Assembly: GCA_051294375.1 (NCBI GenBank)
Contig: CM119265.1
Span: 27,610,874 to 27,674,873 of the forward strand
Direction of reading: 5' to 3'
Length of the DNA stretch: 64,000 bases
From: Paraspadella gotoi
Lineage: Eukaryota; Animalia; Chaetognatha
Shown here: positions 41,801 to 61,752 of the stretch, piece by piece
Numbering within the stretch: position 1 is the stretch's first letter
Layout of the letters: each line of letters begins with the position of its first letter
Program-made: the position numbers and the translations under genes
The notes under the pieces: model-generated
The model's database searches: none
What the model was told of the DNA's origin: nothing
The model's input: the letters and a program-made list of their open reading frames with translations, nothing else

Positions 41801-42487
41801 GGATAAGGCGCTACGTGGGCTGAAGATGACTGTCCGTAACATTTCTAACCCCCTCCAGCAGCCATGGAACGGGTCCCTGGGCTTGGAACCAGGCTTGAGG
41901 GTTTGCCATGCCCCCAAAGCGGCTTACGGCCGTCCTCACGCTTCCCGCAGGGTAGGTACCGGGTTGGGATTGAACCCGGTACCTAGTGGTCATGAGCTGA
42001 TGGCTTTACTCAATGAGCCACCGGGTCACAACTGAAAGTGTCATGATTCTAGGCGGGGTGAACCTAGGCAATGCCCGACTACATGCCCCCCAGATTGTAA
42101 CCCACCTTGCACTGCTTCCAGTGGAGGGAGGGGAGCAATCTTCAGCTAGACCAAGGGCCTGGAATCAGAAGGTTGGAATACGCTCGACAGGATGGGCTTA
42201 CCAGTGTGGATAAGGCGCTACGTGGGCTGAAGATTACTGTCCGTAACTTCTATAACCCCCTCTAGCAGCCATGGAATGGGTCCCTGGGCTTGGAACCAGG
42301 CTTGAGGGTTTGCCATGCCCCCAAGGCAGCTTACGGCCGTCCTCACGCTTCCCGCAGGGTAGGTACCGGTTGGGATTGAACCGGTACCTGTGGTCATGAG
42401 CTGATGGCTTTACTCAATGAGCCACCGTGTCACAACTGAATGTGTCATGATTCTAGGCGGGGTGAACCTAGGCAATGCCCGACTACA
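41801..42487 (-). mobile_element. Family 1 tRNA(Met-like)-headed element, 407-bp head-to-tail repeat (1.7 units), with twister-like ribozyme
   Basis: 72-nt tRNA-like block at 42027-41956 (A box TGGCTCATTGAG, CAT loop, B box GGTTCAATCCC) followed by CCTGG-TTCCAAGC-CCAGG...GAGGG. Confidence 0.8.
41805..41896 (-). ncRNA. Twister-like ribozyme, P3-permuted; second copy at ~42212-42303
   Basis: P3 aag/ctt, P4 cctgg/ccagg with loop ttccaagc, P2 gctr/tagc, GA + T1 ggg:tcc, P1 ggtt(a)gaa/ttcagcc, T2 gc:gc. L1 is CACG rather than the canonical UAA. Confidence 0.6.
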
Positions 42488-43480
42488 AATGAGTATAATA
42501 AAAAGTATAGATATGAAAAAGATAAAAATGAAGAAAGCATTTTTTTGGACAATGCAATTTTTTTTACATAAAACTGTATTTTTTGTCATACCTAAATGAA
42601 ACACAGCTCATATGAATCACAAAAGGACAAAGTTTCTTGATATTTAAATTTTATTTTTCGATTATTACATTAAAATGCCGAAAAATAACTGGAAAGTAAC
42701 CGCGACACTTTTTTTTCCATCATGGTACTTTGGGAAAAAGATTAGAACTACAGGGAGGTCCAGCTCTTTAGGGACTAAATTAAAAAAATTGTTTGGATGG
42801 GTAAAAAATAAGAATAATGGTATAAAAATTGGTAAAAAAATTGGTAAAAAATTGTCTTGACTAAATAATCTATTAAACAAATTTGTCATTGGCAACCCTG
42901 ACCTTCTCCGAGTGTCCAGAGAAGGCGGCACATGCTTTTGCGGCCTCACCAGTTAAAAATGCGGTTATTTCTGCCACTATTGCCGCTATAAAAGAATCGA
43001 GAGTTCTGGAGAGGATGCGTGAGTCAACCTGCTTCTCTATCCTACATTTTCATTAATCGAAGGGATCGCAGTCAGAAAGTCAGAAAGTCAGAAAGTCATC
43101 ATCCTTCATCTTGATTTTCGTCAAAATTTCCCCAAATTTTTGTAAATGAACGCCCGCGAAAAAATATGACATGTTATGCCAAAATCGTAAATTCCAGGGG
43201 ATGCTGTTTTATTTTCCAGACATTTTTGATAAAAATGAAGAGAGTAATTAGCCTAATTTTCAAATTTAGTCTCGCTTTTCTTCTATCATAAACCGTTTCT
43301 GTGCAGTAAGCACTTGAAGTTAGTCCCAAAAGAGCTGGATCTCCATGGAGATATCGGGGTTTAACTTTAGTTGAGGAAGAGGAATCGTAATAGAGCGCTC
43401 TCGGAAAATAGTACCTAACTTTCAATTAAAACTTATATTAATTAAAACTTTAATTTATATTAAATCGTCTCCGTTCACAG

Positions 43481-43590
43481 GGCCACGGGACAGATATCAC
43501 CCGAAATGCACTTGCTCCGAACGAATGAAAAATGGATACCCTTTCTTCTCACTCGATTTGGGAACGCCTCACGAAGTAGAAAGTGTCGAA
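43481..43590 (+). CDS. F-type-lectin-like gene B exon PRDRYHPKCTCSERMKNGYPFFSLDLGTPHEVESVE (copy 1)
   Basis: cacag|...|gtaagc, 110 nt. Matches FTP CTHT.....PWW.VDLG....V..V. Confidence 0.85.
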
Positions 43591-43773
43591 GTAAGCTGCT
43601 TGGTTTTGATTGCTTTGCTTTTTAAAGGGACTGCTTATATTGAACGGTTCTGTCACTAACACATAACAATAATTACTGTCTCTTCATCTCAAATGATTAA
43701 TTTGGATTATTAAACGCTTGTTAATCATTATTTTAGCAATAATTTTTTTGGATTCTTATCGTTGACGTTGAAG

Positions 43774-43838
<65 letters not shown>

Positions 43839-44033
43839 TTTTTCTCTTCCTCATGTATAATGATATGTCTGACTTTGTAACAGAGTAATTAGTGGGTCAT
43901 TTCAATCTCATTTACATATTGTAGTAGTTTAGCTCATTTCTCAATTATTTTGATACGTACGCTTTTCATAGAAGTCTTAATTTGATTATTTTAGCAATAA
44001 TTTAAATGGAGTTTGATAATAAATCTTTTTTAG

Positions 44034-44106
44034 GTTTTTCCTATTCTTCATCAACCGTATCTTCCAAAGAGGATGGACTATCTCATATTTCCCTTTAAAA
44101 TTACAG
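44034..44106 (+). CDS. Gene B exon VFPILHQPYLPKRMDYLIFPFKIT (copy 1)
   Basis: ttttag|...|gtgact, 73 nt, paralogous to 28715-28781. Confidence 0.8.
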
Positions 44107-45443
44107 GTGACTTCACTTTAGAGGTGCAGGGGGCCAATAGGGTGTTTCACCCAAATTTGAAAAGTTTTCAGATCTTGCGCCGCCAGTGACTTTATTTTCA
44201 CGTTTATTTTCCTTTGATCACACCAGATGACATGACATGACATGACATGACATGACATGACATGACTAAAAACCTTTCTTAGCCCATTATTTATGACATG
44301 CACTGCATCGAAATTCCGTCTTTTATTCCTTATAGATTTAGGATTTCTTGAAGCTGCGCTAGCTGTCCCCTAGATTTGAGGTTTTTTCCTGTCTGCATTT
44401 TTAACGTAAGTAGGACAGACTGATGAACAGACATACCGACTGACGGACCGACAGACCGACCGACCGTAACTAAAAACTTTCTGGCTTCTTTCCAAAAGAG
44501 CTCCGTTTCAGAATTCAGAATTAAGTTTGTTTTTAGGTTTAATAATTAGGTAAGAGGTTATGGATTAGGTTTTTGATTACGGTTAACCGTTATGGATTAG
44601 TTTTCGGATTACTGTTAACCGTTAAGGATTTGAGTTTTAAGTTTTGAGATTCAAGTTAAGAGAAGGTTAATGAATAATGATTAAAGTCAAGGGATTAGTT
44701 TAGGGATTGGGAATAAGGGTGAGAGATTGGAATATACCATGATGGAAAAAAAAGTGTCGCGGTTTGGAAAACCAGTTAATTTTATTGTCAAATATATTTT
44801 TGGCTAATAAATAAGTTTTAATAGGTAATCTGACCTCCCTAAGACTGAATAATATAATAATTTCTCAACAGTATTAAATTATTCAATGCATTCAAATACT
44901 TCCATAAGAGGTTGTCTCTAACTGTTTTCACTTCTTTTTGATTAAGAGAACTACTCATATTATTATTATAATTATATCTCTGACATGATATTTTTTATCA
45001 GATTTGGGTAAAAAATGGTCCTTAGCAAGCAGTGAAAAAGATTGATTCTTTATAAAGTAAACCAGGCTTAAGTTATTGTTGCATAATGTGATAATTCATT
45101 ATCTTTCACTTCAACAAAATCTTTATTTTTTTATTTTTGGACTTGTTTAACACTTGATTCTGATAATATATTCAAGGTAATAAAATAATAACTTTGCTTA
45201 CAGAAAGGTTACCCGGAACCTTTATTGATTTAACTTTAACTTTTATTGATACTTTACAATTTAAAAATAATATTCTGTAATATCTACAGCATCAATGTAT
45301 TTTTAATATTGCTCATTTTTTGATATATAAATTAAGATTTATGCCTGAATCTATCCTAATGGAGATAATGCAATAACCATTTGACATAAGACTGAGAAAA
45401 GGCAGGATTTTTAATTATATTGATTAAACTCACAAAGTAATAA

Positions 45444-46132
45444 GGATAAGGCGCTACGTGGGCTGAAGATGACTGTCCGTAACATTTCTAACCCCCTCTA
45501 GCAGCCATGGAACGGGTCCTGGGCTTGGAACCAGGCTTGAGGGTTTGCCATGCCCCCAAAGCGGCTTACGGCCGTCCTCACGCTTCCCGCAGGGTAGGTA
45601 CCGGGTTGGGATTGAACCCGGTACCTAGTGGTCATGAGCTGATGGCTTTACTCAATGAGCCACCGGGTCACAACTGAAAGTGTCATGATTCTAGGCGGGG
45701 TGAACCTAGGCAATGCCCGACTACATGCCCCCCAGATTGTAACCCACCTTGCACTGCTTCCAGTGGAGGGAGGGAGCAATCTTCAGCTAGACCAAGGGCC
45801 TGGAATCAGAAGGTTGGAATACGCTCGACAGGATGGGCTTACCAGTGTGGATAAGGCGCTACGTGGGCTGAAGATTACTGTCCGTAACTTCTATTAACCC
45901 CCTCTAGCAGCCATGGAATGGGTCCCTGGGCTTGGAACCAGGCTTGAGGGTTTGCCATGCCCCCAAGGCAGCTTACGGCCGTCCTCACGCTTCCCGCAGG
46001 GTAGGTACCGGGTTGGGATTGAACCTGGTACCTTGTGGTCATGAGCTGATGGCTTTACTCAATGAGCCACCGTGTCACAACTGAATGTGTCATGATTCTA
46101 GGCGGGGTGAACCTAGGCAATGCCCGACTACA
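45444..46132 (-). mobile_element. Family 1 tRNA/twister-like tandem element (duplicate of 41801-42487)
   Basis: Part of the 3.64-kb duplication. Confidence 0.8.
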
Positions 46133-47122
46133 AATGAGTATAATAAAAAGTATAGATATGAAAAAGATAAAAATGAAGAAAGCATTTTTTTGGACAATGC
46201 AATTTTTTTTACATAAAACTGTATTTTTTGTCATACCTAAATGAAACACAGCTCATATGAATCACAAAAGGACAAAGTTTCTTGATATTTAAATTTTATT
46301 TTTCGATTATTACATTAAAATGCCGAAAAATAACTGGAAAGTAACCGCGACACTTTTTTTTCCATCATGGTACTTGGAAAAAGATTAGAACTACAGGGAG
46401 GTCCAGCTCTTTAGGGACTAAATTAAAAAATTGTTTGGATGGGTAAAAAATAGAATAATGGTATAAAAATTGGTAAAAAATTGGTTAAAAAATTGTCTTG
46501 ACTAAATAATCTATTAAACAAATTTGTCATTGGCAACCCTGACCTTCTCCGAGTGTCCAGAGAAGGCGGCACATGCTTTTGCGGCCTCACCAGTTAAAAA
46601 TGCGGTTATTTCTGCCACTATTGCCGCTATAAAAGAATCGAGAGTTCTGGAGAGGATGCGTGAGTCAACCTGCTTCTCTATCCTACATTTTCATTAATCG
46701 AAGGGATCGCAGTCAGAAAGTCAGAAAGTCAGAAAGTCATCATCCTTCATCTTGATTTTCGTCAAAATTTCCCCAAATTTTTGTAAATGAACGCCCGCGA
46801 AAAAATATGACATGTTATGCCAAAATCGTAAATTCCAGGGGATGCTGTTTTATTTTCCAGACATTTTTGATAAAAATGAAGAGAGTAATTAGCCTAATTT
46901 TCAAATTTAGTCTCGCTTTTCTTCTATCATAAACCGTTTCTGTGCAGTAAGCACTTGAAGTTAGTCCCAAAAGAGCTGGATCTCCATGGAGATATCGGGG
47001 TTTTAACTTTAGTTGAGGAAGAGGAATCGTAATAGAGCGCTCTCGGAAAATAGTACCTAACTTTCAATTAAAACTTATATTAATTAAAACTTTAATTTAT
47101 ATTAAATCGTCTCCGTTCACAG

Positions 47123-47232
47123 GGCCACGGGACAGATATCACCCGAAATGCACTTGCTCCGAACGAATGAAAAATGGATACCCTTTCTTCTCACTCGATT
47201 TGGGAACGCCTCACGAAGTAGAAAGTGTCGAA
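47123..47232 (+). CDS. Gene B exon PRDRYHPKCTCS...VESVE (copy 2)
   Basis: Identical to 43481-43590. Confidence 0.85.
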
Positions 47233-47411
47233 GTAAGCTGCTTGGTTTTGATTGCTTTGCTTTTTAAAGGACTGCTTATATTGAACGGTTCTGTCACTAA
47301 CACATAACAATAATTACTGTCTCTTCATCTCAAATGATTAATTTGGATTATTAAACGCTTGTTAATCATTATTTTAGCAATAATTTTTTTGGATTCTTAT
47401 CGTTGACGTTG

Positions 47412-47464
<53 letters not shown>

Positions 47465-47659
47465 TTTTTCTCTTCCTCATGTATAATGATATGTCTGACT
47501 TTGTAACAGAGTAATTAGTGGGTCATTTCAATCTCATTTACATATTGTAGTAGTTTAGCTCATTTCTCAATTATTTTGATACGTACGCTTTTCATAGAAG
47601 TCTTAATTTGATTATTTTAGCAATAATTTAAATGGAGTTTGATAATAAATCTTTTTTAG

Positions 47660-47732
47660 GTTTTTCCTATTCTTCATCAACCGTATCTTCCAAAGAGGAT
47701 GGACTATCTCATATTTCCCTTTAAAATTACAG
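47660..47732 (+). CDS. Gene B exon VFPILHQPYLPKRMDYLIFPFKIT (copy 2)
   Basis: Identical to 44034-44106. Confidence 0.8.
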
Positions 47733-47762
47733 GTGACTTCACTTTAGAGGTGCAGGGCCAAT

Positions 47763-50010
47763 AGGGTGTTTCACCCAAATTTGAAAAGTTTTCAGATCTT
47801 AATTTACATCAAGGAAAATATGTTGGGAGGTAAAAAAATAAGATTGTACTACTTTTTGTCAAAATTGGCGCAACACCCTTAGTGCTACCCTCGCCTAAAG
47901 ATAAAAAAGCACACCTTGGGCACATTTTCGTCAATTGACTGAAACCTAATGATCCAATCCACGTCCAAAGGATCTTATTAGTTGCCCAACCTTCTAAGGA
48001 TAATGCAGTAAAAATTTCAGCTCTCTATCATGACGAAGGCTCACACTACAGCAGTTACTGTGTGATGGAGTATAGAGAACAATAAGCTTTAAACATTTAA
48101 ACTCAAAACAAAATCATTTCTCTTCAGATCTAATATTTTTTTATATAATATCATACTAGTAGGAGCCAAGTATCTTATTTTTTGAAAGTATGCCCACATC
48201 CTGGTGGATACTTCCTGTACAAACACTAAAAATATAAATCACTACTGTATATCATTTTTTCAACAGTTTTTTAAATCTACAGTGTTAATTGTGACATACT
48301 AATTAGTAGTCGTCTTGCAACAGTGCAATAGACCCTTAAAATTTTCATGGAGTTGCACTTAAATGCAACTGCAGCAGCTTTTTGACCATTTTCTTTAATT
48401 TTATGAAAAACTAATGATGCTATTTTACCCTAACTGATCTCAATACTTGTACAATGTCCATGTTTTCAATATTAATCTTGTATAAATATTAAATATATAT
48501 CATGTCTTCGGACCTTTCTACAGCAATCACAATATGCTGGAGAAAGATTAGTGATTTTTGTTTTTAGTGTTTTGTACAGGAAGTATCCACCAGGATGTGG
48601 GCACACCTTTTAAAAAATAGGACACTTGGCTCCTACTAGTATGATATTATATAAAAAAAAATTAGATCTGAAGAGAAATGATTTTATTTTGAGTTTAAAT
48701 GTTTAAAGCCTATTGTTCTCTATACTCCACCATACAGTAACTGCTGTAGTGTAANNNNNNNNNNNNNNNNNNNNNNNNNAATTTACATCAAGGAAAATAT
48801 GTTGGGAGGTAAAAAAAATAAGATTGTACTACTTTTTGTAAAATTGGCGCAACACCCTTAGTGCTACCCTCGCTAAAGGATAAAAAGCACACCTCTGGGC
48901 ACATTTTCGTCAATTGACTGAAACCTTATGATCCAATCACGTCAAAGGATCTATATAGTTGCCGCAAGCCTTCTAAGGATAATGCAAGTAAAGATTTATC
49001 AGCTCTCTATCATGACGAAGGCTCACACTACAGCAGTTACGTGTTGTATGGAGTATAGAGACAATAAGCTTTAAACATTTAAACTCAAAACAAAATCATT
49101 TCTCTTCAGATCTATATATTTTTTTATATAATATCATACTAGTAGGAGCCAAGTATCTTATTTTTTGAAAGGTTATGCCCACATCCTGGTGGATACTTCC
49201 TGTACAAACACTTAAAAATATAATCACTACTGTATATTCATTTTTTCAACATTTTTTAAATCTTACAGTGTTAATTGTGACATACTAATTATGAGTCGTC
49301 TTGCAACAGTGCAATAGACCCTTAAAATTTTCATGGAGTTGCACTTAAATGCAACTGCAGCAGCTTTTTGACCATTTTCTTTAATTTTATGAAAAACTAA
49401 TGATGCTATTTTACCCTAACTGATCTCAATACTTTGTACAATGTCCATGTTTTCAATATTAATCTTGTATAAATATTAAATATATATCATGTCTTCGGAC
49501 TTTCTACAGCAATCACAATATGCTGGAGAAAGATTAGTGATTTTTGTTTTTAGTGTTTTGTACAGGAAGTATCCACCAGGATGTGGGCACACTTTTAAAA
49601 AATAGGACACTTGGCTCCTACTAGTATGATATTATATAAAAAAAATTAGATCTGAAGAGAAAATGATTTTATTTTGAGTTTAAATGTTTAAAGCCTATTG
49701 TTCTCTATACTCCACCATACAGTAACTGCTGTAGTGTAAGCCTTTGTCATTATAGAAAGCTGAAATTTTTACTGCATCAACTGGGACAACTAATAAGATC
49801 CTTTGGACGTGGATTGGCTCATGAGGAGGTATTCAGTCAATTGACAAAATGTGCCCAAGGTGTGCTTTTTTATCCTTTAGGCGAGGGTAGCACTAAGGGT
49901 GTTGCACAATTTTGACAAAAAGTAGTACAATCTTATTTTTTACCTCCCAACGTATTTTCCTAGATGTAAATTAAGATGTGAAAACTTTTCAAATTTGAGT
50001 GAAACACCCT
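47763..50010. mobile_element. Mutator-like foldback element with ~470-bp TIRs; ~1.3 kb once the gap overlap is removed
   Basis: Ends AGGGTGTTTCAC...GTGAAACACCCT. The 11-bp TSD AGGGGGCCAAT is intact at 44128-44138 and 50011-50021. Confidence 0.75.
48755..48779. other. Scaffold gap (25 N) with ~950 bp repeated on both sides
   Basis: 47801-48754 is repeated at 48780-49739. Confidence 0.95.
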
Positions 50011-53000
50011 AGGGGGCCAATAGGAGGTTGAGTGAAATGTCATTCGCGTAAACTTAAACAATTAAGAATTAATGTGTGTGTTGTAAGGCATTATGAAGAC
50101 AAAAGGGAAAGAGAGTTTGCAATTAGTTTAACTTATGAGTGGAGAACAATCTGGGATACAATTATGCACTTTGATACATCTATGTCATGCGCCAGGTAGG
50201 TTTAAATTTTTGGACAGCATATTTGGATTGCGCATTTGTAGTAATAGTTGGTGTTATTTGTGAGCTTTGTGGTGTTGCAGCACGTGAGCGATGGCATATT
50301 TTGACTTAGTATGAAGTGGTTCTAAAAACTCTGGGAGAAGTTGAGAGTTAAAATTCATTAAATTTAAAATTTGATGATAAGAGAGTGGATGACCGAGAAA
50401 TGTGCTTAGGTTTAACAGGACAAGGGGCTAGGGTATGGTTAAGAAATAAACTAGGTTTTACATTAAGATCTGTTTATATTCAGGATGAGAGCAGAGAGGA
50501 TTAGGCATGTTGAGTCGGCGGTTGAAAATATTTGTGGAAAATATTTGTGATTTATTTGAGAAAGGATTTAGAACAAGATTATTGGGTTGGCAAATTAAGT
50601 GGCAGATTGAGAAGTTTCGTTTGCACATAATACGTTTTTAACTAGCGGTAGCCGACCAAATTCAAATTTTAATGGGAACAGCATTAAAACTAATCCATTA
50701 TTGGTATTAATTATTGTTGTTAAAATATTTTTTTGCAAAAATGTTCCGAACCATGAGTAATTCGCTAATTAATATTATTATATTGCTATATAATGTCAAA
50801 AATTTTGATGTTTTATTACTAAAAATTAGTAAAAACTGCTAAATTCATCGGATGATGATGATGATGATGATTTTTTAAGGTTTTTTTCAATTTAAACCCA
50901 CTTATCATCAAAATATTGGGAAAAGAATTATACTTTGTGTAGATAACTTTTCATAAGCTATTTGAATCTGCTTTAAAAAAAAAATTCAAAAAAAAAATTT
51001 TTGACATTTTCTATCTATAAATAAATATTAAAAAAATAATTACTAATGCTTCTTGCCATTTTAGAAAATTTTGCTCCATTGAAAGTTTTCTCAGAAATGT
51101 ATGAAGTTTCATTTGGAAAGGTTCCCAAATCAAACTTCTGACCCACCCCATTGACGAAGTTTGGCTCTATTTTTAACGTTTTTAGAACGTTTATTTTTGT
51201 TTTCTTTTGTTTTTACCTTTTAGAAAGGTAAGTTGTTTTGTTTCACATATTGCATTTCAGCATTTTTCTGACGTTTATTTCCTTTTATTGGGGATGAGCA
51301 TCGTTTCTAAACTATTGAGTATTTTAAATAAACTTGGTACCGATCGATAGGAAATTTAAAATACTATCTATATGCAAAATTTCATAAAATCGGATAATCC
51401 GTTCAAAAGTTATGGCAATAAAACAGTCGCAAAATCGCGCTTCAAATCGATCAACTTTCGCTTAAAATCGAACTCGTTTTGATCCAATAAGGATTTGAAC
51501 TACCGTAGTACTAAGCTTTAAACCGATAATAGTGATTATGCGCGAACCGGGCCTCATAAAGAGAAAATAGAATAAGCAAAGCCCGGAAAAAAGGGAATCC
51601 TTCACAAATAAATCACAAAAATAATATAATTATAACAATAAAAAAGGAAAAAGACAAGAGAGCCAAAGAAGTAAAAATTGAAAGTATATTGACTGATCTC
51701 ACCAGCAAAACTACTATTAAACTAACTCAATTTAATATCGTTAATTCAAGATTGAGAATTCACTATCGTCACTTCACGATTAATTTTTCATTTTTGAATC
51801 ATTTTAATTTTATGATAACTGATTTTAATATGATAGCAATAAAACTATAATTAAAAGATAATGATTGATAATGGTAAGTAAATTGATGCAATGAATGAAA
51901 TTAATTAAACTAATGATGATGACGATAGTTTAATATCTAAAATTTGTCATATCTGAATCCGGATTTGACTACGATAATTTAGCGGTAATCAGCTAAAAAT
52001 TATGCAAGTTGAAAAAGGTATGCAAGTTGAAAAAGGTATGCCAGTTGAAAAAAGTATGCAAGTTGAAAAAAGTATGCAAGTTAAAAAAAGTATGCAAGTT
52101 GAAAAAAGTATGCAGTTGAAAAAAGTATGCAAGGTTGAAAAAGTATGCAATTGAAAAAGTATGCATACTTTGAAAAAAGTATGCATACTTTGAAGAAAAA
52201 AGTATGCATACTTTGAAAAAGTATGCATACTTTGAAAAAAGTATGCATACTTTGAAAAAAGTATGCATACTTTGAAAAGAGTATGCATACTTCAAAAAAG
52301 TAGGCATACTTCAAAAAAGTAGGCATTTGGAAAGGTTCCCAAATCAAACTTCTGACCCACCCCATTGACAAAGTTGGCTCTATTTTAACGTTTTTAGAAC
52401 GTTTATTTTTGTTTTCTTTTGTTTTTACCTTTTAGAAAGGTAAGTTGTTTTGTTTCACATATTGCATTTCAGCATTTTTCTGACGTTTATTTCCTTTTAT
52501 TGGGATGAGCATCGTTTCTAAACTATTGAGTATTTTTAAAATAAACTTGGTACCGATCGATAGGAAATTTAAAATACTATCTATATACAAAATTTCATAA
52601 AAATCGGATAATCCGTTCAAAAGTTATGGCAATAAAACAGTCGCGAAAATCGCGCTTCAAATCGATCAACTTTCGCTTAAAATCGAACTCGTTTTGATCC
52701 AATAGGATTTGAACTACCGTAGTACTAAGCTTTAAACCGATAATAGTGATTATGCGCGAACCGGGCCTCATAAGAGAAAATAGAATAAGCAAAGCCCGGA
52801 AAAAAAGGAATCCTTACAAAATAAATCACAAAAATAATATAATTATAAAAGAATAAAAAAGGAAAAAGACAAGAGAGCCAAAGAAGTAATAAATTGAAGT
52901 ATATTGACTGATCTCACCAGCAAAACTACAAAGTATGCATACTTTGAAAAAGTATGCATACTTTGAAAAAAGTATGCATACTTTGAAAAAGTACGCATAC

Positions 53001-56000
53001 TTTTGAAAAAAGTATGCATACTTTGAAAAAAGTATGCATACTTTGAAAAAAGTATGCATACTGTTTTTCAAACTTGCAATACTTTTTTCAACTTGCATAC
53101 TTTGAAAAAAGTATGCATACTTTGAAAAAAGTATGCATACTTTGAAAAAAGTATGCATACTTCAAAAAAGTAGGCATACTTTAAAAAAAGTAGGCATACT
53201 TTGAAAAAAGTAGGCATACTTGAAAAAATAGTATGCACTATGCAGGTTAGAAAAAGTATGCAATTTTGAAAAAGTATGCATACTTTAAAAAAGTATCTTG
53301 TAGAGAAGACAATAAGCTATCCGAATCCGTATTGATATGTATGATTTGTCAATTTTTTTTTTCTTTCTCTCTCTCTCTCTTTGTTAACTTTCTTCTCTTT
53401 ATTAATCAATTTCCTCGTCATTCAGCGTATTTCATAAAGAGATAAGATAAAGAGACTTACAAGGGACAAATGACGCTCGAACGCCAATATCACGGCGTGA
53501 AATTCAAAACACAGACACGCGTTCTAAAACGTAAAAATACGGTATAAGCCCTGTTGAAATATGGTATTTATCTGGCCCGGATCGCGCATGATCAATGCTT
53601 ATTTTTAATTGATGTCCTTATTGGAATAACCTACGTCAACCATTTTCAATACAGACCGGAACGCGCGCTAAAAAAGCTTTTAGCATGCGAAACTTGATAT
53701 CTTTCTATTTCTCTAAATTTAATATAAATACTCTCTAAATTTACCCGCCGCGCTCTACCTGAAACAGATAGTAAAAAACAATACAGTTTCTTTCGATGGT
53801 CTTAGAACAAAAAAAATTGAAGGCTTGACTATGCAGTTTTCACCTAAAAACCAGTTCATTTGATTGCTTTATCAAGCAATTGAGATTGCAAGATTTTTAA
53901 TTTTTTCTTTTTTTTATCTTGTAGAGAAGACCATAAGCTATCCGAAACCGTACTGATATGTATGATTTGTTCTAATTTACAAAAGATCTTGCAGGTTTTT
54001 TGGGAAAAAGGGAAAAAAAAGGCCTGACCAGTTCATTTAATCCCATTTTGGGCATGATAAAATGGGAATTTCGATCGCGCTCTACCTCCGTTGGCTTCCC
54101 AAGACGCCAAGCTTTCGAAATCTACCCATATTGATATAAATTATATGGGCCTTGACTATGCAGTTTTGAATATGAAGTGAAAATATTAAGGAATCTTGAT
54201 CGGAACTTCGATTCGAACGACGCGCAGCACTTTTATACATGACGTTTCTGTTTTTATTGTTTTTAACGTTTCAATCTTTTGACGTTCTTAAACGTTTTTC
54301 TTTTAATTTTTACTGACCTTAAAAAACTACTCATTAAATACTGTATATTATAAAGCCTTTGTCATTATAGAAAGCTGAAATTTTTACTGCATCAACTGGG
54401 ACAACTAATAAGATCCTTTGGACGTGGATTGGCTCATGAGGATTCAGTCAATTGACGAAAATGTGCCCAAGGTGTGCTTTTTTATCCTTTAGGCGAGGGT
54501 AGCACTAAGGGTGTTGCACCAATTTTGACAAAAAGTAGTACAATCTTATTTTTTTACCTCCCAACGTATTTTCCTAGATGTAAATTAAGATGTGAAAACT
54601 TTTCAAATTTGAGTGAAACACCCTAGGGGGCCAATAGGAGGTTGAGTGAAATGTCATTCGCGTAAACTTAAACAATTAAGAATTAATGTGTGTGTTGTAA
54701 GGCATTATGAAGACAAAAGGGAAAGAGAGTTTGCAATTAGTTTAACTTATGAGTGGAGAACAATCTGGGATACAATTATGCACTTTGATACATCTATGTC
54801 ATGCGCCAGGTAGGTTTAAATTTTTGGACAGCATATTTGGATTGCGCATTTGTAGTAATAGTTGGTGTTATTTGTGAGCTTTGTGGTGTTGCAGCACGTG
54901 AGCGATGGCATATTTTGACTTAGTATGAAGTGGTTCTAAAACTCTGGGAGAAGTTGAGAGTTAAAATTCATTAAAATTTAAAATTTGATGATAAGAGAGT
55001 GGATGACCGAGAAATGTGCTTAGGTTTAACAGGACAAGGGGCTAGGGTATGGTTAAGAAATAAACTAGGTTTTACATTAAGATCTGTTATATTCAGGATG
55101 AGAGCAGAGAGGATTAGGCATGTTGAGTCGGCGGTTGAAAATATTTGTGGAAAATATTTGTGATTTATTTGAGAAAGGATTTAGAACAAGATTATTGGGT
55201 TGCCAAATTAAGTGGCAGATTGAGAAGTTTCGTTTGCACATAATACGTTTTTAACTAGCGGTAGCCGACCAAATTCAAATTTTAATGGGAACAGCATTAA
55301 ACTAATCCATTATTGGTATTAATTATTGTGTTAAAATATTTTTTTGCAAAAATGTTCCGAACCATGAGTAATTCGCTAATTAATATTATTATATTGCTAT
55401 ATAATGTCAAAAATTTTGATGTTTTATTACTAAAAATTAGTAAAAACTGCTAAATTCATCGGATGATGATGATGATGATGATTTTTTAAGGTTTTTTTCA
55501 ATTTAAACCCACTTATCATCAAAATATTGGAAAAAGAATTATACTTTGTGTAGATAACTTTTCATAAGCTATTTGAATCTGCTTTAAAAAAAAAATTCAA
55601 AAAAAAAATTTTTGACATTTCCTATCTATAAATAAATATTAAAAAAATAATTACTAATGCTTCTTGCCATTTTAGAAAATTTTGCTCCATTGAAAGTTTT
55701 CTCAGAAATGTATGAAGTTTCATTTGGAAAGGTTCCCAAATCAAACTTCTGACCCACCCCATTGACGAAGTTTGGCTCTATTTTAACGTTTTTAGAACGT
55801 TTATTTTTGTTTTCTTTTGTTTTTACCTTTTAGAAAGGTAAGTTGTTTTGTTTCACATATTGCATTTCAGCATTTTTCTGACGTTTATTTCCTTTTATTG
55901 GGGATGAGCATCGTTTCTAACTATTGAGTAATAATACTTGGTACCGATCGGATAGGAAATTTAAAATACTATCTATATGCAAAATTTCAAAAAAATCGGA

Positions 56001-58945
56001 TAATCCGTTCAAAAGTTATGGCAATAAAACAGTCGCGAAAATCGCGCTTCAAATCGATCAACTTTCGCTTAAAATCGAACTCGTTTTGATCCAATAAGGA
56101 TTTGAACTACCGTAGTACTAAGCTTTAAACCGATAATAGTGATTATGCGCGAACCGGGCCTCATAAGAGAAAATAGAATAAGCAAAGCCCGGAAAAAAGG
56201 GAATCCTTACAAAATAAATCACAAAAATAATATAATTATAACAATAAAAAAGGAAAAAGACAAGAGAGCCAAAGAAGTAATAAATTGAAAGTATATTGAC
56301 TGATCTCACCAGCAAAACTACTATTAAACTAACTCAATTTAATATCGTTAATTCAAGATTGAGAATTCACTATCGTCACTTCACGATTAATTTTTCATTT
56401 TTGAATCATTTTAATTTTATGATAACTGATTTTAATATGATAGCAATAAAACTATAATTAAAAGATAATGATTGATAATGGTAAGTAAATTGATGCAATG
56501 AATGAAATTAATTAAACTAATGATGATGACGATAGTTTAATATCTAAAATTTGTCATATCTGAATCCGGATTTGACTACGATAATTTAGCGGTAATCAGC
56601 TAAAAATTATGCAAGTTGAAAAAGGTATGCAAGTTGAAAAAGGTATGCAAGTTGAAAAAAGTATGCAAGTTGAAAAAATATGCAAGTTAAAAAAAGTATG
56701 CAAGTTGAAAAAAGTATGCAAGTTGAAAAAAGTATGCAAGTTGAAAAAAGTATGCAAACAAGTTGAAAAAAATATGCATACTTTGAAAAAAGTATGCATA
56801 CTTTAAAAAAAAAGTATGCATACTTTGAAAAAAGTATGCATACTTTTGAAAAAAGTATGCATACTTTGAAAAGAGTATGCATACTTCAAAAAAGTAGGCA
56901 TACTTCAAAAAAAGTAGGCATTTGGAAAGGTTCCCAAATCAAACTTCTGACCCACCCATTGACAAAGTTTGGCTCTATTTTAACTTTTTAGAACGTTTAT
57001 TTTTGTTTTCTTTTGTTTTTACCTTTTAGAAAGGTAAGTTGTTTTGTTTCACATATTGCATTTCAGCATTTTTCTGACGTTTATTTCCTTTTATTGGGGA
57101 TGAGCATCGTTTCTAAACTATTGAGTATTTTTAAATAAACTTGGTACCGATCGATAGGAAATTTAAAATACTATCTATATACAAAATTTCATAAAAATCG
57201 GATAATCCGTTCAAAAGTTATGGCAATAAAACAGTCGCGAAAATCGCGCTTCAAATCGATCAACTTTCGCTTAAAATCGAACTCGTTTTGATCCAATAAG
57301 GATTTGAACTACCGTAGTACTAAGCTTTAAACCGATAATAGTGATTATGCGCGAACCGGGCCTCATAAGAGAAAATAGAATAAGCAAAGCCCGGAAAAAA
57401 AGGAATCCTTACAAAATAAATCCAAAAAATAATATAATTATAAAAGAATAAAAAAGGAAAAAGACAAGAGAGCCAAAGAAGTAATAAATTGAAAGTATAT
57501 TGACTGATCTCACCAGCAAAACTACAAAGTATGCATACTTTGAAAAAAGTATGCATACTTTGAAAAAAGTATGCATACTTTGAAAAAGTACGCATACTTT
57601 GAAAAAAGTATGCATACTTTGAAAAAAGTATGCATACTTTGAAAAAAGTATGCATACTTTTTCAACTTGCATACTTTTTTCAACTTGCATACTTTGAAAA
57701 AAGTATGCATACTTTGAAAAAAGTATGCATACTTTGAAAAAAGTATGCATACTTCAAAAAAGTAGGCATACTTTAAAAAAAGTAGGCATACTTTGAAAAA
57801 AGTAGGCATACTTGGAAAAATAGTATGCACTATGCAGGTTAGAAAAAGTATGCAATTTTGAAAAAAGTATGCATACTTTAAAAAAGTATCTTGTAGAGAA
57901 GACAATAAGCTATCCGAATCCGTATTGATATGTATGATTTGTCAATTTTTTTTTTCTTCTCTCTCTCTCTCTTGTTAAACTTTCTTCTCTTTTAAATCAA
58001 TTTCCTCGTCATTCAGCGTATTTTCATAAAGAGATAAGATAAAGAGACTTACAAGGGACAAATGACGCCTCGAACGCCAATATCACGGCGTGAAATTCAA
58101 AACACAGACCGCGTTCTAAAACGTAAAAATACGGTAAAGCCATGTTGAAATATGGTATTTATCTGGCCCGGATCGCGCATGATCAATGCTTATTTTTAAT
58201 TGATGTCCTTATTGGATAACCTACGTCAACCATTTTCAATACAGACCGGAACGCGCTTAAAAAAGCTTTTAGCATGCGAAAACTTGATATCCTTTCTATT
58301 TGCTCTAAATTTAATATAAACTCTCTAAATTTACCCCCGCGCTCTACCTGAAACAGATAGTAAAAACAATACAGTTTCTTTCGATGGTCTTAGAACAAAA
58401 AAAATTGAAGGCTTGACTATGCAGTTTTCACCTAAAAAACCAGTTCATTTGATTGCTTTATCAAGCAATTGAGATTGCAAGATTTTTAATTTTTCTTTTT
58501 TTTATCTTGTAGAGAAGACCATAAGCTATCCGAAACCGTACTGATATGTATGATTTGTTCTAATTTACAAAAGATCTTGCAGGTTTTTTGGGAAAAGGGA
58601 AAAAACGGCCTGACCAGTTCATTTAAATCCCATTTTTGGGCATGATAAAATGGGAATTTCGATCGCGCTCTACCTCCGTTGGCTTCCCAAGACGCCAAGC
58701 TTTCGAAATCTACCCATATTGATATAATTTATATGGGCCTTGACTATGCAGTTTTGAATAGAAGTAAAGATATTAAGGAATCTTGATCGGAACTTCGATT
58801 CGAACGACGCGCAGCCCTACTTTTATACATGACGTTTCTGTTTTTATTGTTTTTAACGTTTCAATCTTTTGACGTTCTTAAACGTTTTTCTTTTAATTTG
58901 TTACTGACCTTTAAAAACTACTTCATTAAATACTGTATATTATAA
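49738..58945. repeat. Near-identical 4.6-kb tandem duplication (49738-54352 / 54353-58945), each unit with two internal ~600-bp repeats
   Basis: Continuous identity apart from small indels. Confidence 0.93.
52000..53300. repeat. 18-20-bp minisatellites (aaaaaagtatgcaagttg; aaaaaagtatgcatactttg); duplicate at 56608-57890
   Basis: Direct tandem arrays. The unit contains the perfect palindrome AAAGTATGCATACTTT. Confidence 0.95.
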
Positions 58946-59126
58946 ATATTACTTTTACAGTATTTAATGAAGTAGTTTTTAACATTTTAGTAATGTTATA
59001 AGTGTTGATGTTAGTGTATTACATCTTTATCAGTGTAGTTTTTATTTGTTTACTGTGTTCCAGTCTTTTTACGCAGTTGTTGATACCATTACTGTTTTTG
59101 TATTCAATATAATAAATAAATAATTG

Positions 59127-59358
59127 AAAAGACAATAATTATTTTTATGAGTTAGTGACAGAACCGTTCAATATAAGCAGTCCCTGAGCTTCGGACCAGG
59201 GTGTAACACCGTGTTACAGGCGGGTTAAGCGCCCCGTCCCTCTTATCTGCTAGGCGACCACCGGGCTAGAACCCCAGACCTTTGGGTTGGGAGGCGAATG
59301 ACTTGCCTCCGGCACCAATGGCCGCTGATGAACGGTTGGTGGATTTTAGTCCACCATA
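59127..59358 (-). mobile_element. Family 2 tRNA(Gly-like)-containing element with twister-like ribozyme
   Basis: 72-nt tRNA-like block at 59325-59254 (acceptor stem gcggcca/tggtcgc, CCC loop, B box GGTTCTAGCCC). Second copy at 60110-60342, fragments at ~43627-43680 and ~47267-47322. Confidence 0.8.
59176..59251 (-). ncRNA. Twister-like ribozyme, P5-permuted
   Basis: agcag(P5)..agg-GA-cgg-ggcgct-TAA-ccc-GC-c-tgtaacac-g-gtgttaca(P3)-ccctgg-TCCGAAGC-tcaggg(P4)-a-ctgct(P5'). T1 is ccg:cgg. P1 is very short and P2 imperfect. Confidence 0.65.
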
Positions 59359-59543
59359 TAATAAATAAAAAAAGTTAATGCCATTGTTCAAGTCCTTTTG
59401 GGGAAAAAAATTTAAATTAAGTAATTTAGTTATCACCAGTGACTTTGTTATAAATTAACTCCAGTTTATTTCAAAGATTTTAGCAGCATTGATTGTTATG
59501 ACACCATCGGCGCCAAAGGGAAAAAAATTATTTTATTTTTCAG

Positions 59544-59611
59544 TTGGTAACAGAAGAAATGGTGAAAATCTATTATGTGACTACACAGAAAGCAAGAGCT
59601 TTGATTACAGA
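59544..59611 (+). CDS. Gene B exon VGNRRNGENLLCDYTESKSFDYR
   Basis: tttcag|...|gtaagt, 68 nt. Differences from gene A in the first half are mostly synonymous. Confidence 0.88.
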
Positions 59612-59925
59612 GTAAGTCAAACATAATAAAGAGCGAGATCATTTTCATGGTTAGAAATCGATACGCATGCAAGCATCGCAGATGGAATCGGATCGGCGAC
59701 TCGGATAAAATCTATCGAGGACTTTCTGATTGGATGAATCATCATCGAAACGGACCAATGAGTAGAAAACGAGCCCGTGTCGATGATCCGATTGTATTGT
59801 ATTGTATTGTTTTGTATTATACCTGACCATTTTGAATTAAATGCATCTGTCTCAAATTCTGACACCGTCTTTGTTTGTGACTTTTCTGAGAATAAAATCC
59901 ACTTTGGTTTTAAGTTGAAATCTCT

Positions 59926-60049
59926 GTCCACTTACTTAAAAGTGGTGCTAGTGGTTGGATTCGAACCCACGCCTCCAGAAAGATTGTCTACTTACTTAAA
60001 TGTGGTGGCAGTGGTGAGATTCGAACCCACGCCTCGAGAGAGACTGGTG
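59926..60049 (-). pseudogene. Two tandem tRNA-Leu 3' halves ending in CCA (60-bp period)
   Basis: Minus strand ccagtctctctcgaggcgtgggttcgaatctcaccactgcca-CCA: variable arm, T arm and acceptor strand of tRNA-Leu, with no 5' half. Confidence 0.8.
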
Positions 60050-60109
60050 TTCTATTCTTAATTATCGTTATTTTTTAGTTTAGTAGTACTCGTGGAGAAA
60101 CTCACTTCT

Positions 60110-60342
60110 GAAAAGACAGTAATAATTATTATGTGTTAGTGACAGAACAGTTCAATGGAAGCAGTCCCTGAGCTTCTGATTAGGCTGTAACACCGTGTTA
60201 CTGGAGGGTTAAGCGCCCCGTCCCTCGTAACTGCCAGGCGGCCACCGGGCTAGAACCCCGGACATTTGGGTTGGGAGGCGAATGACTTGCCTCCGGCACC
60301 AATAGCCGCTGATGAACGGTTGGTGGATTTTAGTCCACCATA
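60110..60342 (-). mobile_element. Family 2 tRNA/twister-like element, more decayed copy
   Basis: Aligns end to end with 59127-59358. Confidence 0.8.
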
Positions 60343-60525
60343 CTTCTTTTTTTTTACAATCATGATTATTAAGAATTTGTTAATGTACTATAAATTGAAC
60401 AATGTTTCAAACTTGTGTAAATGCGTGATAACCAAAAATTACGATCAAATGACCAATACTATCTAGGAAAAAAGTATATCACATTTTTAGTAGAGGAAAT
60501 CTACTCAAAAACTTTTTTGATTAAA

Positions 60526-61752
60526 AACAAGTTTGAACAAACAATGTCGGATCTGTCCACGATCATTAGCGGTAATTAATTAATTTTTTAATACAAATTA
60601 TATAAACTAAAAAAAATTAATAAATTAATTAATTTGATCCGAAATGTTTGTTTTTAGGTCTTTTGATCACTGACTGTGGATAAGTCGCTAAATTGGTTGA
60701 AGAAGATTATCCGTAACTTCTTCACCCCCTCTAGCAGATATGGAACGGGTCCTCGGCTTGGAACCAGGCTTGAGGGTTTTCCACGCCCCCAAAACGGCTT
60801 ACGGCCGTCCTCGCACTTCCCGCAGGGTAGGTACCGGGTTGTGATTGAACCCGGTACCTAATGGTCATGAGCTGATGGCTTTACTCAATGAGCCACCGGG
60901 TCACGACTGAAGGTTTTATGCTTAGAGGCGGGGTGAACTTTGCTATGCCCAACTACATGACCATGACAAAAGCAAAAGAAATGACAATGATGGCGACGAC
61001 GACAATAATGATTGACTTAATTGATTGATTGATTGATTAAATAATTAATTAATTTATAAATAAATTGATTGATTGAATAATTAATTTATAAATAACTATA
61101 TAAATTTATTCATTGAATAATTGATTAATTGACCGATTAGTTAATTGTTTATTAATTAATTGACTAATTGATTAATTAACTGATTAATTATTTGATTAAT
61201 TAATACATCTTGCATTTATATTTAATATAAAAAGAAAAAGAAGCATGATCAATTAGTGAAACAGGTTTTTTGTTTTCTTCCATTTAAACTCATTTTCACT
61301 CAGATGATTTCATCGAAACTTGATTTCCAGCTTAATCATACACTTTCCTACCCACATACAAAATTTCAAGTCACTCGCCCCGTTCACTCATAAGTAATTG
61401 ACGTTCAAATAGTGAAATATATTTTTTTGTTTTTTCCATTTAAACTCATTTCCACTTAAACGATTCCATCGAAACTTCCTATCCAGCTCAATCACACACA
61501 TCCCTACCCACACACAAAATTTCATTCCAATCCATCCATCTAATCACGAGCAATCAGAGTTTTTTGCTAAGGTGGGACGGACCGAAAGACGGAGACGGAT
61601 GTCCTGACGGATATCATTTTTTTTGCATAACTTAACATAATTCGATGTTCTGACATGATATAAGTGAATGCCCGACAAGATTGAGGGGGCGGACCGACGG
61701 ACCGACAAAGTTAATTATAGAGTTGGGATCTGCTAATAAGCAGATCCGACCA
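60526..61752 (-). mobile_element. Full-length DINE-1/HINE-like element with a nested family 1 copy
   Basis: Minus-strand 5' gtcggatctgc-ttatta-gcagatcc and 3' cagatccgac-attgtttgttcaaacttgtt. Confidence 0.7.
60675..60959 (-). mobile_element. Family 1 tRNA/twister-like element, monomeric diverged copy
   Basis: Aligns with 41801-42084 with nearly the same boundaries. Confidence 0.8.

What the first reader, a model, noticed from the sequence alone, without database searches (positions are those of the whole stretch)
59127..60342. Second, unrelated tRNA-containing family with a P5-permuted twister and compensatory pseudoknot
Seen (minus strand): a tRNA-Gly-like 72-mer is followed immediately by agcag..agg-GA-CGG-ggcgct-TAA-ccc-GC-[tgtaacac/gtgttaca]-ccctgg-tCCGaagc-tcaggg-a-ctgct. 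T1 is CCG:CGG here and TCC:GGG in family 1, a compensatory difference between otherwise dissimilar elements, and the canonical UAA loop is present (predicted cut 59227/59226). Two full copies and a fragment occur in gene B introns. Inference: repeated, convergent pairing of Pol III tRNA heads with twister ribozymes in this genome, i.e. a class of twister-SINEs. P1 is only ~2 bp, so dimeric folding may be needed.
Basis: partly seen in the sequence, partly recalled or inferred. Interest (0 to 1): 0.82.

Follow-up and report, generated by a model that had tools for sequence, protein, structure and literature searches.

The report
Twister ribozyme in mini-retrotransposon terminal repeats
These two 234-base repeats are likely leftover terminal repeats of a very abundant, protein-free jumping element in an animal genome rather than SINEs, and the family carries a tRNA-like segment followed by a twister-type RNA fold predicted to cut its own transcript, possibly best when two copies pair up.

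Summary
The motif is real, but the element is likely not a SINE. Copies A (59125-59358) and B (60109-60342) are 234 bp, on the minus strand. Each holds a tRNA-like 72-mer followed by a P5-type twister fold. The fold is intact only in A; B's breaks in T1, T2 and P4 are private to B.

Sequencing runs show a very abundant family with both ends fixed (TA...CA). Both window copies have exact 4-bp target duplications. One run also shows a purine tract just upstream of the element and end-to-start tandem joints. These features fit solo LTRs of a non-autonomous LTR retrotransposon of the Helenus/TRIMp3 type. Family 1 in this window shows the full two-LTR form.

Both families share an unusual twister variant: a 3-nt bulged P2 and a loopless, self-complementary 6-nt P1, with compensatory changes between them. 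This argues against 'convergent'.

Best model: an animal LTR retrozyme that uses a twister where plants use a hammerhead. Cutting, Pol III transcription, circles and dimer dependence are untested. Rfam and ARAGORN recognise neither part, and no primer-binding site was seen for this family. I found no twister-LTR element in print.

The parts
59125..59358 (-). Family-2 copy A, 234 bp, likely solo LTR (termini TA...CA), twister intact
   Evidence: Ends from loose-end clusters at 59125 and 59358 in 4 of 4 runs; pair table
59121..59124 (.). 4-bp target-site duplication of copy A, left copy
59359..59362 (.). 4-bp target-site duplication of copy A, right copy
59338..59355 (-). 7-bp hairpin at the element's 5' end (U3-side leader)
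59329..59337 (-). 5' arm of a 9-bp helix predicted to enclose the tRNA-like part and the twister (partner 59162-59170)
   Evidence: 9/9 pairs in A, 8/9 in B; present in the MFE fold
59254..59325 (-). tRNA-like 72-mer; B-box-like motif at 59263-59273, degenerate A box; predicted Pol III promoter
   Evidence: Acceptor 7/7 and D arm 4/4 pairs; not recognised by ARAGORN or Rfam
59176..59251 (-). P5-type twister fold: P5, bulged 3-bp P2, GA 59238-59237, T1, palindromic P1 59233-59228, UAA 59227-59225, T2, P3, P4/L4
59226..59227 (-). Predicted cleavage site U/A
   Evidence: Position by analogy to characterised twisters (PMC8501958 section 17); untested
59162..59170 (-). 3' arm of the enclosing helix
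59127..59130 (-). Only T4 run in the LTR; possible weak Pol III terminator
   Evidence: function inferred
60109..60342 (-). Family-2 copy B, 234 bp, likely solo LTR with 4-bp duplication (60105-60108 / 60343-60346); twister broken in T1, T2, P4
43626..43686 (+). 3' fragment of family 2 (from the 3' strand of P4 to the end); no cleavage site, no duplication seen
47269..47327 (+). Same fragment in the segmental duplicate
59544..59611 (+). Host exon between A and B (gene not identified); the elements are antisense to it
   Evidence: Splice signals; exon-only cover in X7; no Pfam hit
60675..60957 (-). Family-1 solo LTR (TG...CA, 4-bp duplication), comparison element
45444..46132 (-). Family-1 two-LTR element with a TGG-starting PBS-like site and a G-run PPT (duplicate at 41801-42487); comparison element

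Best explanation
Copies A and B are likely solo long terminal repeats of a very abundant non-autonomous LTR retrotransposon whose LTR holds a tRNA-like segment, predicted to be a Pol III promoter, followed by a twister-type fold predicted to cut the RNA, so that a two-LTR transcript would be cut into a unit-length RNA that would likely be circularised and copied by a helper retrotransposon.

Shown: the anatomy, the fixed ends, the 4-bp duplications in 2 of 2 copies, high abundance, and the family-wide twister core.

Inferred from contig evidence: a purine tract 5' of the LTR and a two-LTR form.

Inferred by analogy: Pol III start in the 5' LTR, read-through of the terminal T4, a cut at U/A in each LTR, ligation by a host ligase, tRNA- and PPT-primed reverse transcription, and integration by a Gypsy-type helper. 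The window copies are antisense in introns and would not cut the host pre-mRNA. The self-complementary P1 and P3 would let the two LTR copies of one transcript pair and favour the active fold over a competing hairpin; this step is the least supported.
For: LTR identity. Ends are fixed at the same two bases in all runs laid: in run X1, 206 contigs leave at 59358 and 88 at 59125, with flank agreement only about 0.4. Exact 4-bp duplications occur at those read-defined ends in 2 of 2 copies; chance is about 0.006-0.009 each. In run X1 a group of 51 short contigs leaving at 60343 has a C-rich run on +, that is a G-run purine tract just 5' of the element, and 2 contigs join end to start. Flank consensus tends to the same A-T-A-T-like 4-mer on both sides (weak). 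Family 1 shows LTR-PBS-PPT-LTR and a solo LTR with a 4-bp duplication. Animal Helenus have tRNA-derived LTRs, 4-bp duplications and solo LTRs (PMC10886601), and some wasp members start TA and end CA.

Twister. All elements reported as sensitive are intact in A: both pseudoknots, the general acid and base, and L4 (PMC11662667 section 32). At B's breaks, 95-100% of the laid depth has A's letter. The frequent variants at 59251, 59254 and 59257 keep pairing. Between families, T1 changes at 2 of 3 pairs on both sides and P1 is a different palindrome. Descriptor null: 0 of 20,000.

Precedent for the cycle: plant LTR retrozymes (PMC4918200 passages).
Against: No primer-binding site and no complete two-LTR copy of family 2 was seen. 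The purine-tract signal appears clearly in only 1 of the 4 runs, and two of those four look like one data set filed twice.

Rfam does not detect the twister in A; family 1 scores 18.2 bits against a cut-off of 37.6. P2 has 3 nt on its 5' strand, against 4 in the 3 phage controls and in the 7 S. mansoni examples. The predicted monomer fold of A's domain buries T1' and T2 in a competing hairpin: -28.3 kcal/mol against -17.7 for the twister-compatible helices, with pseudoknots not counted. CpG decay hits T1 in 6-12% of X1 depth, much like other CpG sites.

The promoter boxes are degenerate and ARAGORN sees no tRNA. A T4 at the LTR end could stop Pol III before the internal region. Copy A also fits a longer 13-bp duplication in its AT-rich context, and the 5'-truncated fragment resembles a TPRT product.
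Confidence: 0.6

Rival explanations
1. Ordinary Helenus-type TRIM in which the twister only trims RNA ends or is a non-cutting structural relic. The element would replicate by standard LTR strand transfer from a linear RNA, and the palindromes would serve as RNA dimerisation signals for packaging.
For: Most Helenus LTRs read by eye have no ribozyme and still transpose. The predicted monomer fold shows a hairpin with the palindrome in its loop. P2 and P1 are non-canonical and Rfam is blank.
Against: Catalytic residues and both pseudoknots are kept, with compensatory changes between two otherwise dissimilar families. A cut in both LTRs would remove the terminal redundancy that a linear cycle needs (established LTR mechanism; inference).
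Confidence: 0.22
2. Twister-SINE: a Pol III tRNA head plus a twister, inserted by target-primed reverse transcription, like the hammerhead-bearing SINE-like repeats of schistosomes.
For: tRNA-like head and terminal T4; a 5'-truncated fragment with the same 3' end; a 13-bp duplication is possible for copy A; the schistosome precedent (PMC6765202 section 11).
Against: 33-nt fixed leader before the tRNA part; both ends fixed; no A-rich or repeat tail; 4-bp duplications in 2 of 2 copies; purine tract 5' of the element; the companion family is plainly LTR-type.
Confidence: 0.1
3. DNA-type non-autonomous element (Helentron/HINE-like: subterminal inverted repeats and a terminal hairpin, read on the + strand) that carries the tRNA-twister cassette as cargo.
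For: 9-bp subterminal inverted repeats and a terminal hairpin. The resemblance to HINEs is recalled, not tested against a library.
Against: Rolling-circle elements make no target duplication (recalled), whereas both copies have one. A purine tract and tandem joints are present. The inverted repeat also fits an RNA helix.
Confidence: 0.04
4. The twister likeness is a chance pattern in a GC-rich repeat.
For: No Rfam hit; the descriptor was relaxed after the sequence was seen.
Against: 0 of 20,000 element shuffles and 1 hit in 60 window shuffles; the same motif in the same place in a second family, with compensatory changes.
Confidence: 0.04

Closest known systems
Helenus TRIMs / TRIMp3 (Kojima 2024, PMC10886601; main text parts 1-4 of 6 and section 29 read, supplement parts 1 and 5-9 of 11 read by eye)
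   Same: Short non-coding LTR with a tRNA-derived segment and a conserved GGTTC box B; 4-bp duplications in animals; solo LTRs; G-run PPT; some LTRs with TA...CA ends; several families per genome.
   Different: The text has 0 occurrences of 'twister', three twister L4 motifs are absent from the supplement, and I saw no twister by eye in the parts read. Box A here lacks the usual TRGCY. No PBS was seen for family 2. Two wasp members (Helenus-2_SyJa, Helenus-2_SyUm) show a hammerhead core at the same place (read by eye), which the text does not mention.
Plant LTR retrozymes (Cervera et al. 2016, PMC4918200; passages read)
   Same: Non-coding LTR element with a self-cleaving ribozyme motif inside the LTR, 4-bp duplications, PPT and solo LTRs; presumed Gypsy helper.
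   Different: Hammerhead type III in plants versus a twister in an animal; shorter LTR (234 vs about 330-350 bp) with a tRNA-like internal segment; circles and cleavage are shown for plants and untested here.
Type-P5 twister ribozyme (Rfam RF02684; PMC5408937 passages; PMC11662667 section 32)
   Same: Order of elements, GA, UAA, T1, T2, L4 and P4 as in the Rfam consensus and the three phage controls.
   Different: 3-nt bulged P2; P1 is a loopless 6-nt palindrome; long near-palindromic P3; P5 closed; not detected by the Rfam model.
Twisters at the 5' end of S. mansoni Perere-3 non-LTR elements (Liu et al. 2021, PMC8501958; section 17 and passages)
   Same: Twister in an animal retroelement; weak P1; P3 begins with a similar sequence.
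   Different: P1-type, defines the 5' end of an autonomous LINE, 4-bp P2, no tRNA part, no LTR.
Schistosome hammerhead SINE-like repeats and dimeric Penelope hammerheads (PMC6765202 section 11 part 2; PMC7229834 passages)
   Same: Pol III/tRNA element paired with a ribozyme; a palindromic, nearly loopless stem that works through dimers of tandem copies.
   Different: Hammerhead; non-LTR; no PBS, PPT or 4-bp duplication.

Membership tests
Helenus / TRIMp3 | tRNA-derived sequence with box A and box B inside the LTR | tested here: inconclusive
   72-nt acceptor-closed segment and GGTTC box B present; box A degenerate; ARAGORN and Rfam blank
Helenus / TRIMp3 | 4-bp target duplication (animals) | tested here: met
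   2 of 2 full copies at the read-defined ends
Helenus / TRIMp3 | Fixed LTR termini | tested here: met
   TA...CA, fixed in all runs laid; non-canonical, but present in wasp Helenus
Helenus / TRIMp3 | PPT directly 5' of the 3' LTR | tested here: inconclusive
   Purine tract in the consensus of one 51-contig group in run X1; not clear in the other 3 runs
Helenus / TRIMp3 | Two LTRs around a short internal region with a PBS | tested here: inconclusive
   2 contigs join end to start with the spacer not shown; no PBS seen for family 2; present for family 1
Helenus / TRIMp3 | Pol III transcription | not testable with these tools
   Only contigs are available; they show no starts or strand
LTR retrozyme | Hammerhead ribozyme in each LTR | tested here: not met
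   No Rfam hammerhead hit at E<=10; the motif is twister-type, so the element may work like a retrozyme but is not a member as defined
LTR retrozyme | Self-cleavage and circular unit-length RNA | not testable with these tools
   The circle junction would equal the LTR sequence; no raw RNA reads listed
Twister ribozyme, type P5 | General-base G with following A, U-A-A cleavage loop, L4 residues | tested here: met
   Copy A; no variant at >=3% listed at these positions (5 rows were not shown)
Twister ribozyme, type P5 | Pseudoknots T1 (3 bp) and T2 (2 bp) | tested here: met
   3/3 and 2/2 in A; broken in B; compensatory against family 1
Twister ribozyme, type P5 | Canonical 4-bp P2 and a P1 hairpin | tested here: not met
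   3-bp bulged P2 and loopless P1; PMC11662667 reports P1 and P2 imperfections as tolerated, but I did not see this exact variant tested
Twister ribozyme, type P5 | Score above the Rfam RF02684 cut-off | tested here: not met
   No hit at E<=10; controls scored 55-61 bits
Twister ribozyme, type P5 | Site-specific self-cleavage | not testable with these tools
   Needs an in vitro assay
tRNA-derived SINE | 5' end at the tRNA head | tested here: not met
   Fixed 33-nt leader
tRNA-derived SINE | A-rich or simple-repeat tail and variable-length duplication | tested here: not met
   Sharp 3' end and 4-bp duplications; a 13-bp alternative exists for A only

The most novel reading that the evidence does not exclude
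A dimer-gated twister retrozyme. The ribozyme cuts only when the two LTR copies of one full-length transcript swap strands through the palindromic P1 and P3, so the very many solo LTRs stay silent while full elements make Pol III-driven circles. Animal Helenus-type elements would then include an unrecognised class of LTR retrozymes with interchangeable ribozymes (twister here, hammerhead in gall wasps).
Probability: 0.27. Interest if true: 0.86.

Novelty: new variant of a known kind. Interest (0 to 1): 0.7.

Why it matters
LTR retrozymes are described in the papers read only from plants and only with hammerheads; animal retrozymes are described as non-LTR. Twisters in retroelements are described only at LINE 5' ends. 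If this family cuts and circularises, it joins two separately described element types (Helenus/TRIMp3 and retrozymes), gives the twister a second biological job, and shows the ribozyme slot is interchangeable. The variant escapes Rfam, so such elements would be missed in genome annotation. A natural strand-swapped twister dimer would be new for the ribozyme class. Every step can be tested with short in vitro transcripts and RNase R northern blots.

Tried and rejected
- No whole genome is held, so there is no genome-wide copy collection, duplication census or search for the two-LTR master or the helper.
- Rfam at gathering threshold on the window: 0 hits. At E<=10 on 58000-61500 and on copy A: no twister or tRNA.
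- The shared-subtype pattern found 1 viral locus, which holds three canonical phage twisters and was used as a control. It found 3 metagenome loci that look bacterial and have no Rfam hit at E<=1. No relative in another species was found; these collections hold little animal DNA, so the blank says little.
- No listed holder is on record as RNA. X7 is guessed RNA and covers the exon but not the introns. X6 has near-identical contigs and depths to X7, so they were counted as one data set. Contig depth cannot show expression, ends or circles, and I drew no conclusion from dips near the cut site.
- Summed contig depth over the element is about four orders of magnitude above the unique intron flank; the tool warns that this is no copy number.
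- The host gene was not identified: 55 candidate frames gave no Pfam hit above a curated cut-off.
- The P4 similarity between families was rejected as proof of common descent, because a phage twister has nearly the same P4.
- The T-stem row and the family-1 P1 rows 'F1d_P1' and 'F1e_P1' used shifted coordinates and are not used.
- Roth et al. 2014 is not held.
- Look-ups of earlier findings by sequence and by relatives returned nothing.

Full report
Observation. On the minus strand, two 234-bp copies (A 59125-59358, B 60109-60342) are 91% identical. A 61-bp 3' fragment occurs at 43626 and again in a segmental duplicate at 47269. Copy A reads, 5' to 3': a 7-bp hairpin; one arm of a 9-bp enclosing helix; a 72-nt tRNA-like segment (acceptor 7/7, D arm 4/4, B-box-like motif); a P5-type twister fold; the second arm; an AT-rich tail ending in T4-CA. 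The whole of A folds better than its shuffles (z -3.46); B does not clearly (z -1.42). ARAGORN found 0 tRNAs. Rfam found neither tRNA nor twister on A at E<=10. The 'Gly' label therefore rests only on a recalled resemblance.

The twister. In A the general-base G and its neighbouring A, the UAA loop (U/A at 59227/59226), T1 (3/3), T2 (2/2), P4 (5/5 with one G-U), P5 (5 bp) and L4 are all in place. A descriptor taken from the Rfam P5 consensus line, relaxed after the fact to allow a 3-nt P2, found A, four family-1 copies and 3 of 3 true phage twisters. It also hit 1 of the 3 metagenome loci. It hit 0 of 20,000 shuffles of A and once in 60 shuffled windows. B has mismatches in T1, T2 and P4; at those positions 95-100% of the laid depth has A's letter, so the family keeps the core and B has decayed. 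Where A differs from the family majority inside the ribozyme (59196, 59201, 59246), the majority letter improves pairing in P4, P3 and P5. The frequent variants at 59251, 59254 and 59257 keep their pairs. Against this, CpG decay reaches T1 in 6-12% of X1 depth, and a loop-proximal P3 pair is broken in 3-17%.

Non-canonical features. The 5' strand of P2 has 3 nt, with a bulge on the opposite strand, against 4 bp in the phage controls and in 7 S. mansoni examples. P1 is a 6-nt stretch with no loop that is self-complementary (duplex -8.3 kcal/mol). P3 is a near-palindrome, and a homodimer is predicted 13.5 kcal/mol more stable than two monomers. The predicted monomer fold buries T1' and T2 in a competing hairpin (-28.3 against -17.7 kcal/mol, pseudoknots not counted). 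A test of over 2,600 natural twisters found P1 dispensable and P2 imperfections and length tolerated, while the pseudoknots and catalytic residues were not (PMC11662667 abstract and section 32). Cutting as a monomer is therefore plausible, and so is help from a dimer. Penelope hammerheads with a palindromic, nearly loopless stem work as dimers (PMC6765202 section 11).

Relation to family 1. BLAST finds no homology, and the best local alignment is the 21-nt P4-L4 block (8 of 1,000 shuffles reach its score), which a phage twister nearly shares. Yet family 1 parses with the same 3-nt bulged P2 and a different loopless 6-nt palindrome. Its T1 is UCC with an upstream GGA, and Rfam aligns it weakly to Twister-P5 (18.2 bits, E 0.14). 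The chance of a palindrome in both families is about 0.003. With only two families this is suggestive: a shared twister subtype is at least as likely as convergence.

What kind of element. Laid on A, four runs gave 14,829, 12,331, 2,881 and 961 contigs, and depth falls sharply at 59125 and 59358. In X1, 206 contigs leave at the 5' end and 88 at the 3' end into unrelated AT-rich flanks. Laid on B, the same ends appear. At these read-defined ends both window copies have exact 4-bp duplications. In X1, a group of 51 mostly short contigs leaving at 60343 carries a G-run purine tract directly 5' of the element in ribozyme sense, and 2 contigs join the end back to the start with a spacer that is not shown; the other three runs of that call do not show the tract clearly. 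Family 1 has LTR, a TGG-starting PBS-like site, about 120 bp of internal sequence, a G-run PPT and a second LTR, and it has a solo copy with a 4-bp duplication. This is the layout of animal Helenus TRIMs: tRNA-derived LTR, 4-bp duplications, solo LTRs, presumed Gypsy helper (PMC10886601). Several wasp members also start TA and end CA. Against an LTR: no PBS and no whole two-LTR copy of family 2 was seen; copy A also fits a 13-bp duplication in its AT-rich context; and the truncated fragment could be a TPRT product.

Host context. An exon at 59544-59611 on the + strand has splice signals and is covered alone in X7, so A, B and the family-1 solo LTR are antisense in introns. The gene was not identified. 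'Animal' is inferred from intron-rich, AT-rich, repeat-rich DNA and agrees with earlier unchecked notes; it is not shown by a call.

Mechanism. Shown: anatomy, fixed ends, duplications in 2 of 2 copies, abundance, conserved core. Inferred from contigs: PPT and two-LTR form. Inferred by analogy with plant retrozymes (PMC4918200 passages) and with ligation of animal retrozyme RNA (PMC7229834 passages): transcription from the tRNA-like promoter, a cut in each LTR, circularisation, and copying and integration by a helper. Degenerate promoter boxes and the terminal T4 are open problems for the Pol III step.

What is in print. Searches for twister with SINE and tRNA, retrozyme and LTR, dimer and palindrome, retrotransposon and circular RNA since 2024, long terminal repeat and non-autonomous, and Helenus with ribozyme listed no paper that, by title, abstract start or the passages read, describes a twister in an LTR or TRIM. 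Most subscription journals are not searched, and Roth et al. 2014 was not held. The Helenus text has 0 occurrences of 'twister'. Its supplement lacks three twister L4 motifs (line breaks could hide a match). I read parts 1 and 5-9 of 11 by eye and saw none; parts 2-4 were searched by motif only. Two gall-wasp Helenus LTRs show a hammerhead core after the tRNA part. PMC7761336 (passages) mentions truncated twisters at RTE 5' ends only. PMC13570524 (passages) has no twister.

Earlier scan notes. Four unchecked AI notes on this genome describe twister-bearing mini LTR elements. One gives 647 bases with a 413-base unit, which implies a 234-base LTR, the length of family 2. I could not confirm identity by sequence. 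My LTR reading was written down before I saw these notes; they are not counted as support.

Verdict. A real feature, and a new variant of known kinds: Helenus-like in build, retrozyme-like in its predicted working, with a non-canonical twister. Interest 0.70.

Noticed in passing
Supplement of PMC10886601, Helenus-2_SyJa-LTR and Helenus-2_SyUm-LTR: Both published LTR consensus sequences show a hammerhead core with three stems (read by eye) downstream of the tRNA-like part; the paper's text does not mention it.
   Followed up: partly
window 59925-60046 (-): Two tandem 60-bp copies of a tRNA 3' half ending in CCA, between copies A and B; they look like reverse-transcribed tRNA pieces or extended primer-binding sites.
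   Followed up: no
window 45444-46132 and 41801-42487 (-): The family-1 two-LTR element has a second GA-GGG segment downstream, so its twister has two possible T1 partners. Its second LTR lacks the terminal three bases, and its PBS-like site was not matched to a tRNA.
   Followed up: partly
L001 392-445, 802-857, 1307-1360 (-): A phage contig with three canonical Twister-P5 ribozymes spaced about 400-500 bases apart (55-61 bits).
   Followed up: no
window 59125-59358, run X7 record 23: A 1,485-base contig at depth 536 in the RNA-like run starts inside the element and runs about 1.4 kb past its 5' end; it could be a host transcript or a longer element form.
   Followed up: no
window 59176 / 60153: Opposite-strand joints to the element's 5' end suggest copies inserted into other copies near the AT-rich spacer after P5.
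   Followed up: no
window 40530-47800 and 49738-58946: Two recent tandem segmental duplications (98.7% and 97.4% identical); the first contains the family-1 two-LTR element and the family-2 fragment.
   Followed up: no
window 58907-58986: AT-rich near-perfect hairpin with weak microRNA-family scores below their cut-offs; probably a small inverted-repeat element.
   Followed up: no
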